From the IMG/VR virus record IMGVR_UViG_3300029288_004596, positions 1-64,000 of that record: 64,000 nt of DNA. One strand, 5' to 3'. The position numbers were made by a program, and so were the translations under genes. Positions 42,082-45,066 of this stretch are shown here, in pieces (position 1 is the stretch's first letter; each line of letters begins with the position of its first letter). The stretch comes from a virus (lineage: Duplodnaviria > Caudoviricetes). A model generated the notes under the pieces. The model ran no database searches. It was not told where the DNA came from and saw nothing but the letters and a program-made list of their open reading frames with translations.

Positions 42082-45066
42082 TTATTTACCCCAGGCAGGG
42101 TAACAGCACTTCTTATATTTCTTCTTGCTTCCACATGGGCAGAGGTCGTTTCTTCCTATCTTCATATCCACATCAACGCCAGACCCTGTGTTTCCTTTCA
42201 TAGCCTGCAGTCTTATATCTTCCCAGGTCTCCACCCACTTGTGTATCTGGGTAGAGTAGGAGTTGTTGTCTAGGATTCTTTCTCTACCAGCTTCTCCAGT
42301 TTCTTTTCTGAACTTCTCATCCTCTATTAACCTGGAGAGATGCTGTTCCCATTCATATGGGGTGTCAGCTGTAAAGGCTCCAGGACCTTCATTTACAAAT
42401 CTCTGATAGGGGGCTATCCTCGCTCCCACTATGGGTATACCCCAGGCAAGGTGCTCCTCGAATTTAAGAGAAGAGTTATGGGTCACAAAACCATTGGCTG
42501 TAAAGTAACCATCGCTTGTCTGTATATCTATAGGTTCTATCTCTTCTGGTTCTATAGACACTATTTCTTTGGCAAAACTTATAGGTTTAGAGTGGTTGGA
42601 CCATTTTTTCTGTAGACTACTCTCTGCAGTAGTCCTCTTCCTTCTTCCTATGAATCCTATGTCTCTACAGAAAATCTCTCTTTCCTCTCTTGGGAGTAGC
42701 AAGTTCCAGTATATATTTCCCTTATAGGTTCCAGTGCCTACAACTCTTTTTGACAACTTTGCTGTTATCCCAAACCCTAAGAGGAGAAGCTGCACATCTT
42801 CCATCATCTTCTTGTACTTGCTTACTATTTGGATGCTTCCATTTTTAGTTGCTGTTCCATCACTCTCAAAGTACGCCGCTAAGAAATTAGCCACTACAGA
42901 CTTCGGAGACTTGAAGATAATATCTGGGACACATACATTTCTTTTTCTTCCCCATCCCTTGGCTTTAGCTAATCCTAAGTGCTCAAGTATATCTACTAGA
43001 TTTCTTGACGAGACTATCAACTCCTTGCAGTTGACTAGTTGTTTATCAAAGGTGTATTTATCTTTCTTGATCATAGCTAGTCCTAAATGAGAAGCTGTGA
43101 TTGTCACATCTTCAATAACATCCTCGTCCTTGGAGTCACATGTTATTATTGTGTGTCCACCATTTATGGATCCATCCCCAGCTATGTATCCCATTAATCT
43201 CCCCCAGTTTTCGTCTATCTTTACTATGGGACAGCTAATCCCAGACATAGAATAGTTGTCTAGGGAGTTCTTAGAGTGTCTAGTTAATAACAAAGGCCAA
43301 CCAAACTCTTGATATTCTGAATTAAACCTCATGCGAGAGAGTAGTAGGGTATCACCTACTGCTAAGTTTTCTACAGTAACATCTCCTTTAGGAGTTGGGA
43401 ACCTATGTTCTTTAGTTGCTAATACACTAAACCCATAGTCTGTAGTTATCCTATAACCTATCTGCTTTGGTTGTCTCTCTATGGCTTCTATGTCAGTCCA
43501 GTGATCTTTGTTCCATATCATGTCTCCCACATTAGCTTCATGGAGACTTATCATCCCATTGTCTGTAGATACTCTAGTGTTTTTGTCTAGACACTTCGAG
43601 ACATTAAATGACGAAAATGCTAACGGAGCCACTCCAATATCAAAGTGCGTTAACATCTCAGGGTATCTATCCAAGGGAGCTGGGGGCAGTATGATAATTC
43701 TGTCTCCAAAGTCCCTCATTTCTTTGTTAGCCATGAACATAGACGCCATGTCAGGAGAGGTCTGCAAAGCGAACTTGACATGGGGGTACTTGTTCAACAC
43801 CATCTTAGCTATAGGCCATATGTAGGGGATGTCCTTCTGGTGAGTGTTCATGCACCAGAAGCTCTTGCCATTTCTCCTGACATAGAGAGTGTGGTTAGGC
43901 ACTGTCACACAGTAGATGTTGCCCTTATAATCTGAGATACTCTGGTGGTCCTTTTCTACTAGGGCCTCTGATTTCTTATTTACTCTTATTGAGTCCCCAA
44001 GGGCGTCAGCTGAGACTCCAGCCTTTAGACACAGTTCTATTACAAAATCTTCAAGCCCCTTGCTAAGGAGCAGTTCATCCTTGTGTTTTATAAAGATGCC
44101 CACTAGTCTCAAGAGTTCTTCAGAGCTATAGGTCAGGACCTCTCTAAGATCCCAGTAGTCTATCACTTTCTTTATTCCCGAGAGCCAGCTGGCTACTCTG
44201 TTTAATAATTGCTCATCTACCTTAGAGGTCCCAGTCCACTTGGCGTTCTTTTTGACGTAGAAGATTTCTCCCCACGCCACCTCAGCCTGCATCTCCGAAT
44301 AGGTTTCCTGCCCATCCAGTCTTATATACATCCAGTGGTTGGGTGTCACTCCGCAGCTTACATATTTGTTGTCTATTTCATGGAGTGGGCCCTTGTATTT
44401 CCTGATCACTATCTCTGAAGGATAGGCGTACTCCAGCTCATGGGTCAGCGGATCCAGGGTGGCTATCTTGTCCTGCATGGTTAGATCCCTGAAGAGTTTG
44501 AATCCCTCTTCAGTCAGCACCTCTGTCAGGTTGTCGTAACAGTTGCCTCCTGACCAACCTACAGTGAGGGCTGGGTCTCTGTTCTCCACCCTCTTGCTCC
44601 AGTTCCTCATCTCCCAGTCAATCGCGTTAGGGAGTACGTACGTATTTCTATTTAGCTTCAGGTAGAAAGCCGCAAGTTCATTGGTTGTGACTGTCAGTCC
44701 GCTGGCGTTAGCTATGGCCTTCTCAGCGTTAGAGAGTTCCTTAGTTCCCTGTTTGTACACTCTATATGCAGGGGAATCCTCATGCACCCCATGAAGGTAG
44801 TCGTCCACCTCATAGATTACTGTCTTGCCTGAATCCCTGGCCATTTCCAGCATCCATAGTATGTCTTCATTATACTGCCTTTGGGCTAGTATATAGTCAG
44901 CAGCCATAAGTTCCTGCTGGTTAACTTGTTTACACCATCTAGCGTTGGCTCCAAGTTTAGCTGCGTATTCTATAGGGCAGCGCACTCTGAGGTATCCGCA
45001 AGCTGAGTCGTCAGCTACAAAGCCTAATATGTTTAGGCCTGCAAGAGAGTTCATATTGTCCTCCAA
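42082..45066 (-). CDS. GT-B (GT4-like) glycosyltransferase precursor with two inteins and a C-terminal SEC-C zinc motif
   Basis: Spliced product of 389 aa has CGYLRV..P, YEVDD, VGWSGGN|THQKD, DIGVAPL..FNVSK|SSLKFEE..GIPIV; C-terminus KIGRNDLCPCGSKKKYKKCC. Confidence 0.9.
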   Translation of the reverse strand: MEDNMNSLAGLNILGFVADDSACGYLRVRCPIEYAAKLGANARWCKQVNQQELMAADYILAQRQYNEDILWMLEMARDSGKTVIYEVDDYLHGVHEDSPAYRVYKQGTKELSNAEKAIANASGLTVTTNELAAFYLKLNRNTYVLPNAIDWEMRNWSKRVENRDPALTVGWSGGNCYDNLTEVLTEEGFKLFRDLTMQDKIATLDPLTHELEYAYPSEIVIRKYKGPLHEIDNKYVSCGVTPNHWMYIRLDGQETYSEMQAEVAWGEIFYVKKNAKWTGTSKVDEQLLNRVASWLSGIKKVIDYWDLREVLTYSSEELLRLVGIFIKHKDELLLSKGLEDFVIELCLKAGVSADALGDSIRVNKKSEALVEKDHQSISDYKGNIYCVTVPNHTLYVRRNGKSFWCMNTHQKDIPYIWPIAKMVLNKYPHVKFALQTSPDMASMFMANKEMRDFGDRIIILPPAPLDRYPEMLTHFDIGVAPLAFSSFNVSKCLDKNTRVSTDNGMISLHEANVGDMIWNKDHWTDIEAIERQPKQIGYRITTDYGFSVLATKEHRFPTPKGDVTVENLAVGDTLLLSRMRFNSEYQEFGWPLLLTRHSKNSLDNYSMSGISCPIVKIDENWGRLMGYIAGDGSINGGHTIITCDSKDEDVIEDVTITASHLGLAMIKKDKYTFDKQLVNCKELIVSSRNLVDILEHLGLAKAKGWGRKRNVCVPDIIFKSPKSVVANFLAAYFESDGTATKNGSIQIVSKYKKMMEDVQLLLLGFGITAKLSKRVVGTGTYKGNIYWNLLLPREEREIFCRDIGFIGRRKRTTAESSLQKKWSNHSKPISFAKEIVSIEPEEIEPIDIQTSDGYFTANGFVTHNSSLKFEEHLAWGIPIVGARIAPYQRFVNEGPGAFTADTPYEWEQHLSRLIEDEKFRKETGEAGRERILDNNSYSTQIHKWVETWEDIRLQAMKGNTGSGVDVDMKIGRNDLCPCGSKKKYKKCCYPAWGK
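42475..43593 (-). mobile_element. Intein with LAGLIDADG homing endonuclease (373 aa)
   Basis: Starts CLDKNT, block B ATKEHRF, LMGYIAGDG and FLAAYFESDG, ends ANGFVTHN with Ser at +1. Confidence 0.92.
43846..44541 (-). mobile_element. Intein with degenerate endonuclease remnant (232 aa)
   Basis: Starts CYDNLTEVLTEEGF, block B VTPNHWM, ends YCVTVPNHTLYVRRNGKSFWCMN with Thr at +1. Confidence 0.88.

What the first reader, a model, noticed from the sequence alone, without database searches (positions are those of the whole stretch)
42082..45066. Glycosyltransferase inside the baseplate operon carries two inteins
Seen: a 232-aa intein in the GWSGGN|TH motif and a 373-aa LAGLIDADG intein in the FNxxK|SxLK motif; splicing yields a 389-aa GT-B enzyme. 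Known: inteins persist mostly in conserved motifs of essential proteins, typically replication enzymes and terminases, and are uncommon in GTs. Here the polymerase and helicase have none. Inference: this GT is essential and widespread enough in the phage population to sustain homing, as expected for the initiating enzyme of virion glycosylation. Splicing could also gate its activity.
Basis: partly seen in the sequence, partly recalled or inferred. Interest (0 to 1): 0.8.

Follow-up and report, generated by a model that had tools for sequence, protein, structure and literature searches.

The report
Two inteins in phage baseplate glycosyltransferase
A sugar-transferring enzyme encoded among the baseplate genes of an uncultured 217-kb phage is interrupted by two self-splicing protein inserts (inteins), and this enzyme family is invaded by inteins again and again at the same sites, which is unusual for an enzyme that does not act on DNA or ATP.

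Summary
ORF 42082-45066(-) encodes a GT-B, GT4-like glycosyltransferase with a SEC-C zinc tail. It carries a 232-aa intein at GWSGGN|TH and a 373-aa LAGLIDADG intein at FNVSK|SS. Intein-free alleles of 386-389 aa in syntenic relatives align with clean gaps at both junctions. One correction: a GGAGG box favours ATG 45054 as the start, giving a 990-aa precursor and a 385-aa product.

New here:
- About 23 of the 150 best cluster representatives of the family carry inteins, at four sites. Sister proteins differ in content, and sizes run from 140 to 406 aa.
- Intein 1 has lost most of its endonuclease and matches the exteins in composition, so it looks like an old resident.
- Intein 2 keeps both catalytic motifs and has foreign GC3, so it looks newer and probably mobile.
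- Both sit in donor-binding loops, so the unspliced precursor should be inactive.

"Widespread enough to sustain homing" is supported. "Essential" and "initiating enzyme of virion glycosylation" are untested, and the baseplate position holds only in this phage clade. The terminase of the same genome also carries an intein. The scan has noted this family's inteins before on other DNA. I found no paper describing it.

The parts
42082..45066 (-). It encodes the precursor of a GT-B glycosyltransferase with two inteins.
45060..45064 (-). GGAGG Shine-Dalgarno box 5 nt upstream of ATG 45054, the likely true start (990-aa precursor).
   Evidence: P0061 in the protein library starts at this ATG.
44542..45054 (-). 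Extein 1: the N-terminal Rossmann-like (acceptor) domain plus the first strand of the C-domain, ending in GWSGGN.
   Evidence: In the AF2 model of allele P0002, strand 166-171 precedes the junction.
43846..44541 (-). Intein 1, 232 aa, class-1 type: Cys1 (CYDNLTEVLT), block B TPNH, block F/G YCVTVPNHTLYVRRNGKSFWCMN, terminal Asn, +1 Thr. The penultimate residue is Met, not His. The endonuclease is largely deleted or degenerate.
43594..43845 (-). Extein 2, 84 aa (THQKD ... FNVSK): the middle of the C-terminal, donor-binding Rossmann domain.
42475..43593 (-). Intein 2, 373 aa, canonical class-1 intein: Cys1 (CLDKNTRVST), block B TKEH, C-terminal THN, +1 Ser. It has an inserted LAGLIDADG homing endonuclease. 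GC3 is 0.37, below all 22 long ORFs of the window.
43171..43197 (-). First LAGLIDADG motif of intein 2 (LMGYIAGDG), acidic residue kept.
42856..42879 (-). Second LAGLIDADG motif of intein 2 (AAYFESDG), acidic residue kept.
42085..42474 (-). Extein 3, 130 aa (SSLKFEE ...): the rest of the C-domain with the invariant Glu871 (the second Glu of the GT4 EX7E region), the C-terminal helices and the SEC-C tail.
42097..42153 (-). SEC-C zinc-binding motif (CPCGSKKKYKKCC) at the C-terminus.
   Evidence: Pfam PF02810, 34 bits against a cut-off of 20.4. The profile also matches SecA C-terminal peptides in the PDB.
45068..45460 (-). Upstream neighbour: gp25/W-like baseplate wedge protein.
   Evidence: PHROG matches. 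Syntenic in L004, L005 and L006.
40969..42072 (-). Downstream neighbour: Baseplate_J-like protein.
   Evidence: PF04865 at 6.5e-32, phrog_6 at 6.7e-49. Syntenic in L004, L005 and L006.

Best explanation
The gene encodes a 990-aa precursor (994 aa from the TTG) of a GT4-like, GT-B-fold glycosyltransferase with a SEC-C zinc tail. It is co-oriented and tightly packed between the gp25/W-like and J-like baseplate genes of an uncultured 217-kb phage.

Two class-1 inteins interrupt the donor-binding C-terminal Rossmann domain. Intein 1 sits in the glycine-rich loop right after the first strand of that domain (GWSGGN|TH). Intein 2 sits in the family-specific FNxxK|S loop that occupies the place of the GT4 EX7E motif. 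Each should excise itself after translation, through Cys1 attack, transfer to the +1 Thr or Ser, and Asn cyclisation. The result would be a 385-aa enzyme. Until both have spliced, the donor site is split, so the precursor should be inactive (inferred).

Intein 2 carries an apparently intact LAGLIDADG endonuclease and a foreign base composition. It is probably the younger and still mobile element. Intein 1 has lost one LAGLIDADG motif and degraded the other, and its composition matches the exteins. It is probably an older resident that can no longer home on its own.

The enzyme family as a whole is an intein hot spot in phages. It has four insertion sites, patchy occupancy between sister proteins, and every stage from a full endonuclease to 140-aa mini-inteins. 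What the enzyme glycosylates is not shown. Virion (baseplate or tail) proteins are the best guess from gene position, at about 40%. The confidence given here is for the intein and enzyme anatomy, not for the acceptor.
For: - Junctions: exact gaps against intein-free alleles, and a profile re-finds the three exteins alone.
- Intein 1: homologous at both ends to the annotated P1201 ThyX intein. Twelve homologous inteins at the same site in other family members share C[YF]D..TE.LT ... YCVTVPNH.LYVRR ... N|[TS]H.
- Intein 2: LAGLIDADG_3 at 3.2e-22 in two stretches. Sequence relatives are the gp41-1 and VMA inteins. In the precursor model, residues 490-861 match the TliVMA intein at Z 27.3, rmsd 3.4 over 302 residues, and also match PI-PkoII and PI-PfuI.
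- Precursor model: mean pLDDT 87. All four splice junctions (174-177, 407-409, 490-492, 858-864) fall below pLDDT 50; the only other such stretch is 596-600, inside intein 2.
- Enzyme fold: allele P0002 folds at pLDDT 96. It matches GT4 enzymes BshA, MshA, PglA and PimA by fold (Z 27.3, rmsd 2.9 over 314 residues) and by profile.
- Exteins are conserved: R27, D88, D89, N147, H409, F487 and E871 are invariant in 75 sequences.
- Endonuclease states.
- Composition: GC3 is 0.370 in intein 2 and 0.578 in intein 1, against 0.52-0.58 in exteins 1 and 2, 0.48 in extein 3, and 0.392-0.512 in the window's ORFs.
- Hot spot and patchiness.
- Phage class-1 inteins often lack the penultimate His and still splice (PMC5050341).
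- Synteny.
Against: - Splicing has not been observed.
- Intein 1 has Met where His is usual. It scores below Pfam's intein threshold (14 bits against 35.8). Its fold could not be searched in isolation.
- Endonuclease activity of intein 2 is inferred from motifs only.
- No close relative of either intein is on record (best about 42-45% identity), so 'recent' rests on composition alone.
- The enzyme lacks the first Glu of the canonical EX7E motif, and its donor and acceptor are unknown.
- The baseplate position is confined to one clade.
Confidence: 0.82

Rival explanations
1. The gene is a decaying relic. One or both inteins no longer splice, no active glycosyltransferase is made, and the open frame is kept only by chance or for the endonuclease.
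For: Intein 1 lacks the penultimate His and most of its endonuclease. Relative L006 carries a clearly degenerate site-D intein that ends in TLN.
Against: All splicing nucleophiles and block B T-x-x-H are present in both inteins. The frame is open for 2985 nt. Every invariant extein residue of the family is kept. The penultimate residue is non-His, mostly Gly, throughout the site-C intein series, including in members with intact endonucleases. Such phage inteins do splice (PMC5050341).
Confidence: 0.07
2. The enzyme does not glycosylate the virion. It acts on something else: phage DNA (glycan hypermodification), a host envelope polymer, or a small molecule. Its place in the baseplate cluster is a clade-specific accident of gene order.
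For: Distant family members are not next to baseplate genes. Arthrobacter phage Atuin gp165 lies among DNA-metabolism genes. The nearest solved folds act on small molecules, lipids or teichoic acids: BshA, MshA, PimA, TarM. The genome has a divergent thymidylate-synthase-family gene that scores below all NCBIfam cut-offs and could be a pyrimidine hydroxymethylase. Viral GTs that hypermodify DNA are cited in PMC12619734.
Against: The position between the W-like and J genes is kept in four phages whose enzymes are only 40-59% identical. The gene is packed with 9-13 nt gaps and no terminator-like site. Virion glycosylation by phage GTs encoded beside structural genes is established in mycobacteriophages (Freeman 2023, cited in PMC12619734).
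Confidence: 0.35
3. Splicing is a regulated switch (conditional protein splicing). The two inteins hold the enzyme inactive until a late-infection cue, for example a redox change acting on Cys1 or on the Cys near the C-terminus of intein 1.
For: Both inteins split the donor site, so activity must wait for two splicing events. Intein 1 has extra cysteines in block F and at position -3. Conditional splicing is discussed for other inteins in PMC4760082.
Against: Close relatives L004 and L005 do without either intein. Occupancy is patchy between sister proteins, as expected of selfish elements and not of a conserved regulator.
Confidence: 0.1

Closest known systems
Corynebacterium phage P1201 ThyX (thymidylate synthase) intein
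   Same: It is homologous to intein 1 at the N-terminal splicing region (30% identity over 137 aa, 2e-16) and at the C-terminal blocks (YxGxxYCxTVPNHTLYVRRNGKxxW, 71% over 28 aa). It also ends in a non-His residue plus Asn.
   Different: The host protein (ThyX) and insertion site differ. The P1201 intein is about 345 aa and keeps a LAGLIDADG motif (LVGFFAGDGS) where intein 1 reads a degenerate stretch.
HEN-associated VMA inteins (TliVMA, PhoVMA; PDB 7qsu, 7qss, 7qst), PI-PkoII (2cw7) and PI-PfuI (1dq3)
   Same: Like intein 2, these are class-1 inteins with an inserted two-motif LAGLIDADG endonuclease. Fold match Z 27.3, 23.6 and 21.7 over about 300-318 residues. Sequence matches at 1e-7 to 1e-3.
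   Different: They are archaeal inteins in V-ATPase, DNA polymerase and ribonucleotide reductase. Identity is about 20%. The +1 residue here is Ser and the host is a glycosyltransferase.
gp41-1 intein (cyanophage-like, metagenomic split intein; PDB 6qaz)
   Same: It is the best sequence match to the splicing domain of intein 2 (9.6e-9), both at the N-terminal 82 aa and at the C-terminal ...DI.. F.AN..THN.
   Different: gp41-1 is naturally split, has no endonuclease and sits in a helicase.
Mycobacteriophage inteins (Kelley et al. 2016, PMC5050341)
   Same: These are phage inteins placed in active-site loops, with several insertion sites per host protein (seven in TerL). The penultimate His is often replaced in class 1, and classes 1 and 3 are both present.
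   Different: Most hosts there are nucleic-acid-binding or ATPase proteins. The text holds no occurrence of 'glycosyl'. Here the host is a sugar-nucleotide enzyme.
GT4 retaining glycosyltransferases BshA, MshA, PglA and PimA
   Same: Same GT-B fold with two Rossmann-like domains (Z 24-27). The profile matches from the G-loop to the C-terminal helices. The second Glu of EX7E is invariant.
   Different: Identity is 11-17%. The first Glu of EX7E is replaced by a five-residue FNxxKS insertion. The GWxGGxTH loop is specific to this family. There is a SEC-C tail. No curated NCBIfam family matches.
Virion O-glycosylation of mycobacteriophages (Freeman et al. 2023, as cited in PMC12619734)
   Same: Phage-encoded glycosyltransferases lie beside structural genes, and the phage also carries sugar-pathway genes.
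   Different: No glycan has been shown here and the acceptor is unknown. This is an uncultured jumbo myovirus-type phage, and the enzyme carries inteins.

Membership tests
Class 1 intein (intein 2) | N-terminal Cys or Ser nucleophile and block B T-x-x-H | tested here: met
   C492 (CLDKNTRVST) and TKEH in block B.
Class 1 intein (intein 2) | C-terminal His-Asn followed by a +1 Cys, Ser or Thr | tested here: met
   The sequence reads ...GFVTHN|S865. This Ser is kept in at least 90% of the family.
Class 1 intein (intein 2) | HINT fold with the two ends brought together | tested here: met
   Model residues 490-861 match the TliVMA intein at Z 27.3, rmsd 3.4 over 302 residues.
Class 1 intein (both inteins) | Precise absence from homologous intein-free alleles at a conserved site | tested here: met
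   Clean gaps in P0002, P0003, P0004 and P0036. Atuin gp165 is colinear across both sites.
Class 1 intein (both inteins) | Autocatalytic protein splicing | not testable with these tools
   This needs expression of the precursor and detection of the ligated product.
Class 1 intein (intein 1) | Cys1, block B T-x-x-H, terminal Asn, +1 nucleophile | tested here: met
   C176, TPNH, N407 and T408. The same pattern holds in 11 further inteins at this site.
Class 1 intein (intein 1) | Penultimate His (block G) | tested here: not met
   The residue is Met406. The whole site-C series has Gly, Lys, Gln or Met here. This is usual in phage class-1 inteins and is not strictly defining (PMC5050341).
Class 1 intein (intein 1) | Match to curated intein models or solved inteins | tested here: inconclusive
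   Pfam Intein_splicing scores 14.1 bits against a cut-off of 35.8. The best PDB hit is the AceL NrdHF intein at E 0.3. In contrast, the match to the annotated P1201 ThyX intein is 2e-16. The model is beta-rich with high pLDDT, but the fold could not be searched alone.
LAGLIDADG homing endonuclease (intein 2) | Two LAGLIDADG motifs with the catalytic acidic residues | tested here: met
   LMGYIAGDG and AAYFESDG. PF14528 matches in two stretches at 3.2e-22. The fold matches PI-PfuI and PI-PkoII.
LAGLIDADG homing endonuclease (intein 1) | Two LAGLIDADG motifs with the catalytic acidic residues | tested here: not met
   The motif 1 region is deleted. Motif 2 reads LVGIFIKHKDE where full-length relatives read LDWYLKGDG.
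LAGLIDADG homing endonuclease (intein 2) | Cleavage of the intein-free allele | not testable with these tools
   The candidate 42-bp targets in L004 and L005 share 26 of 42 bases with the window's joined site. Activity is unknown.
GT-B glycosyltransferase, GT4-like | Two Rossmann-like domains with an inter-domain cleft | tested here: met
   AF2 model at pLDDT 96. BshA 2jjm matches at Foldseek E 4.7e-13 and at Z 27.3.
GT-B glycosyltransferase, GT4-like | EX7E motif in the C-domain | tested here: inconclusive
   The second Glu (E871) is invariant. The first is replaced by the FNxxKS loop. Pfam Glyco_trans_1_2 scores 31.7 bits, above its cut-off of 25.
SEC-C motif proteins | C-terminal CxC...C[CH] zinc motif | tested here: met
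   CPCGSKKKYKKCC. PF02810 scores 34 bits, above its cut-off of 20.4. A similar tail is found in 37 of 153 family members.
Phage virion-glycosylation system | Glycans on virion proteins that depend on the phage enzyme | not testable with these tools
   Only positional evidence exists, together with a sugar-nucleotide and GT cluster at 56-17793.

The most novel reading that the evidence does not exclude
The endonuclease-less intein 1 persists and spreads by hitch-hiking. It lies only 252 bp (84 codons) from the cut site of the endonuclease-bearing intein 2, so repair of a break at site D could carry intein 1 into a naive allele by co-conversion. The two inteins would then behave as one composite mobile unit. 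More broadly, this glycosyltransferase family would be the first described intein hot spot outside nucleic-acid and ATP-binding proteins, with cross-traffic from terminase P-loop inteins at a shared GK|T context.
Probability: 0.2. Interest if true: 0.6.

Novelty: new member of a known kind. Interest (0 to 1): 0.5.

Why it matters
Surveys place inteins mainly in replication, recombination and packaging ATPases (PMC4760082, PMC5050341). A sugar-nucleotide enzyme family that phages carry, with four insertion sites and every stage of the homing cycle, widens that picture. It gives a natural series for studying intein gain, decay and loss. It marks this enzyme as common and conserved among co-infecting large phages. 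That is indirect evidence that it matters to them, and a reason to find out what it glycosylates. The family also offers compact mini-inteins of 140-150 aa with Thr or Ser at +1, and relatives of the fast gp41-1 intein. These could interest protein engineers.

Tried and rejected
I used the search for related loci instead to get genomic context.
- Megablast of 40000-48000 against GenBank phages gave no match.
- An iterated profile built from the window's J and W-like proteins found neighbours only in L004, L005 and L006 among 80 loci. Pfam Baseplate_J in five long distant contigs gave one hit, 50 kb from the enzyme gene. I therefore dropped the idea that the whole family is baseplate-linked.
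- The four tandem Glyco_trans_1_2 genes at 3427-7188 are not paralogs of this enzyme (best E 0.006 with filters off).
- hmmalign across the large inserts dropped most intein-bearing rows. I removed the inteins in a script and rebuilt the tree.
- Pfam and PDB sequence searches with intein 1 alone were weak.
- The fold of intein 1 could not be searched by itself.
- The search for close relatives of intein 2 found nothing above about 35% identity. The representative set gave 42%. No recent donor can therefore be named.
- P0210 looks like a site-D case at its N-junction, but its C-junction is unclear, so I counted it only as probable.
- Literature searches for inteins in glycosyltransferases found nothing relevant.
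Full report
**1. Observation**

The minus-strand frame 42082..45066 is open for 994 codons.
- Intein 1 is residues 176-407 (232 aa, window 43846-44541).
- Intein 2 is residues 492-864 (373 aa, window 42475-43593).
- The three exteins are 175, 84 and 130 aa, which add up to 389 aa.

The decisive test is comparison with uninterrupted alleles. A search among shorter proteins returned P0002 (389 aa, on a 210,951-bp viral contig), P0003 (386 aa) and P0004 (388 aa). 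In the alignment these show clean gaps exactly at both inserts. P0002 reads GWSGGNTHQKD across the first junction and FNMAK|SSLKY across the second. A distant GenBank homolog, Arthrobacter phage Atuin gp165, is colinear across both sites too. A profile of 70 intein-free homologs finds just three pieces in the 216,899-bp genome, and they coincide with the three exteins.

One correction concerns the start. After the stop codon of the upstream gene the sequence reads cTTGGAGGAcaatATG. A GGAGG box therefore lies 5 nt before ATG 45054 and overlaps the TTG. The library copy P0061 starts at that ATG. The likely precursor is 990 aa and the likely product is 385 aa.

**2. The inserts are inteins**

Intein 2 is canonical. 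It has Cys1 (CLDKNTRVST), block B TKEH and the C-terminal sequence GFVTHN followed by Ser. It has two LAGLIDADG motifs with their acidic residues (LMGYIAGDG and AAYFESDG).
- Pfam LAGLIDADG_3 scores 3.2e-22 in two stretches.
- Its sequence relatives in the PDB are the gp41-1 intein, VMA inteins, PI-PkoII and PI-PfuI.
- tblastn hits fall in inteins of phage terminase, helicase and portal genes.

Intein 1 is not recognised by Pfam at threshold (14 bits). It is nevertheless homologous at both ends to the annotated intein of Corynebacterium phage P1201 ThyX (2e-16 and 1e-12). It has Cys1, block B TPNH, block F/G YCVTVPNHTLYVRRNGKSFWCMN, a terminal Asn and a +1 Thr. The penultimate residue is Met. 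In all twelve inteins at this site it is a non-His residue, mostly Gly. Kelley et al. report that this is common in phage class-1 inteins and compatible with splicing (PMC5050341).

An AlphaFold model of the whole precursor, built with 75 aligned sequences, has a mean pLDDT of 87. All four splice junctions (174-177, 407-409, 490-492 and 858-864) drop below pLDDT 50; the only other such stretch is 596-600, inside intein 2.
- The exteins still assemble into a GT-B enzyme. BshA 2jjm matches at Z 27.3, rmsd 2.9 over 314 residues.
- Residues 490-861 match the endonuclease-associated TliVMA intein at Z 27.3, rmsd 3.4 over 302 residues.
- Intein 1 is modelled as beta-rich halves around four helices. 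I could not search that fold alone.

**3. The host enzyme**

The intein-free allele P0002 folds at pLDDT 96. It matches GT4 retaining glycosyltransferases (BshA, MshA, PglA, PimA, TarM) both by fold and by profile.

Site C lies in the loop between the first strand of the C-terminal Rossmann domain (166-171 in P0002) and its first helix. This is the glycine-rich loop GWxGGxTH. Site D lies between strand 244-247 and helix 261-268. There the family has a five-residue FNxxKS insertion in place of the first half of the GT4 EX7E motif, and the second Glu (E871) is invariant. From what is known of GT4 enzymes, both loops line the nucleotide-sugar site (my inference). A precursor holding either intein should therefore be inactive.

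The protein ends in a SEC-C zinc motif, as do 37 of 153 relatives. No curated NCBIfam family matches it.

**4. The family is an intein hot spot**

A full scan of 1.84 billion cluster representatives with extein 1 gave 1210 hits at E<=1e-3. Among the best 150, about 23 carry large inserts. Nineteen of these are among the first 60. The inserts fall at four sites:

| Site | Junction | Representatives | Notes |
|---|---|---|---|
| A | GK\|...THN\|T, before the YEVDD strand | 2 | Class-3 hallmarks |
| B | PN\|C...GN\|C | 1 | |
| C | GG.\|TH | 13, including the window | Inteins of 140-406 aa |
| D | FNxxK\|S | 10-11 | Inteins of 233-382 aa |

Full-length site-C inteins have two LAGLIDADG motifs (FFGFWLAEGW and LLDWYLKGDG). 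In the window's intein 1 the first motif region is deleted and the second reads LVGIFIKHKDE. P0083 and P0099 are complete mini-inteins. At site D the window's intein and five others keep both motifs, while L006, P0084, P0101, P0127 and P0133 are degenerate.

I built a tree of the exteins with the inteins removed in a script. Sister proteins differ in intein content:
- the window (C+D) pairs with P0002 (none);
- P0062 (C+D) pairs with P0003 (none);
- P0068 (C) pairs with L006 (D);
- P0073 (A+C) pairs with P0064 (none);
- P0087 (C) pairs with P0082 (D).

This is the pattern of repeated gain and loss expected from homing cycles. The closest relative of intein 1 (45% identity) sits in P0120, whose extein is distant. 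The intein in the nearer host P0062 is only 38% identical. This hints at horizontal movement, but I did not test it statistically.

**5. Age of the two inteins**

GC3 is 0.370 in intein 2. That is below every one of 22 long ORFs in the window (0.392-0.512, mean 0.461, sd 0.031). GC3 is 0.578 in intein 1, close to the adjoining exteins 1 and 2 (0.52 and 0.58; extein 3 is 0.48). Taken together with the endonuclease states, intein 1 looks like an old, immobilised resident. Intein 2 looks like a later and probably still mobile arrival. No close donor is on record.

**6. Context and function**

The gene lies 13 nt after the gp25/W-like gene and 9 nt before the Baseplate_J gene, on the same strand. 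No minus-strand terminator-like site lies between them.

The order W-like, enzyme, J is kept in three related large phages:
- L004 has no intein.
- L005 has no intein, and three small genes are inserted before J.
- L006 has a site-D intein only, with a degenerate endonuclease.

Extein identity within this group is 40-59%. It is not a family-wide feature.

The window also holds a 17-kb sugar-nucleotide and glycosyltransferase cluster. It contains two radical SAM enzymes, dehydratases and epimerases, four tandem Glyco_trans_1_2 genes, a CmcI-like methyltransferase, a GHMP kinase and nucleotidyltransferases. The four tandem enzymes are not paralogs of this one.

Virion glycosylation is therefore a reasonable guess, by analogy with mycobacteriophages (Freeman 2023, cited in PMC12619734). 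DNA glycosylation or envelope modification is not excluded. The genome has a divergent thymidylate-synthase-family gene that scores below all curated cut-offs. 'Essential' and 'initiating enzyme' remain untested.

**7. Other inteins in the genome**

The terminase large subunit lies outside the window at G000 102658-105324. It carries an intein between the Lys and the Thr of its Walker A motif (RAGK|MAPLY...TPTHN|T). That intein has LAGLIDADG and Hom_end domains and the class-3 Trp-Cys-Thr hallmarks.

**8. Prior knowledge**

Full-text searches found no paper describing an intein in a glycosyltransferase. Two surveys of intein hosts contain no occurrence of 'glycosyl' in their text.

Earlier notes of this scan, on other genomes, describe the same thing. 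They report an intein in the donor motif of a SEC-C-tailed, baseplate-module glycosyltransferase and a family that is repeatedly invaded. My survey was made independently before I read them, and it agrees.

**9. Verdict**

This is a real and well-delimited double intein in a new kind of host protein. The mechanism is ordinary, but the host family and the density of insertion sites are of moderate interest.

Noticed in passing
G000 102658-105324 (L084:658-3324, minus strand), outside the window: The terminase large subunit (888 aa) carries an intein between the Lys and the Thr of its Walker A motif (RAGK|MAPLYSTVYT ... YTPTHN|THALS). The intein has no N-terminal nucleophile. It shows the class-3 hallmarks: DEHLW in block B, QCIMV in block F and T-H-N in block G. 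It also has LAGLIDADG_3 and Hom_end domains.
   Followed up: partly
Proteins P0073 and P0102 (homologs from other phages): The site-A inteins of this enzyme family (GK|GGTY.TKILT ... VCISVD ... FIVTHN|T) also show the class-3 Trp-Cys-Thr hallmarks. They resemble the terminase intein of the window's own genome. Both sit in a GK|T context, which suggests ectopic movement between the terminase P-loop and the enzyme.
   Followed up: partly
Proteins P0083 and P0099: These are natural mini-inteins of 140 and 150 aa at site C, with Thr or Ser at +1 and no endonuclease. They could be compact splicing domains for engineering.
   Followed up: no
window 56-17793: A large sugar-nucleotide and glycan cluster. 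It holds a B12-binding radical SAM enzyme, a second radical SAM enzyme, two GDP-mannose-dehydratase-like enzymes, four tandem genes of about 310 aa matching Glyco_trans_1_2, a CmcI-like methyltransferase, a GHMP kinase, two nucleotidyltransferases, an RmlD-like reductase and a HAD phosphatase. A DnaB-like helicase gene is interleaved with them.
   Followed up: partly
window 46317-53951: A 2544-aa ORF just upstream of the baseplate genes has no Pfam match at E<=0.01. It is 36-41% identical to counterparts in the three related phages.
   Followed up: no
G000 195239-196509 (L085): A divergent thymidylate-synthase-family protein (271 aa) scores below every NCBIfam cut-off (best 114 bits against 174.55). 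It lies next to a dUTPase. It could be a pyrimidine hydroxymethylase, which bears on whether the phage modifies its DNA.
   Followed up: partly
L005:9382-10517: In relative L005, three small ORFs (109, 154 and 102 aa) are inserted between the glycosyltransferase and the Baseplate_J gene. One has a CxxC...CxxC pattern.
   Followed up: no
window 42082-45066: The exteins and intein 1 have GC3 of 0.48-0.58, mostly at or above the range of 22 other long ORFs in the window (0.39-0.51). Intein 2 lies below that range. The whole gene may have a history different from its neighbours.
   Followed up: no
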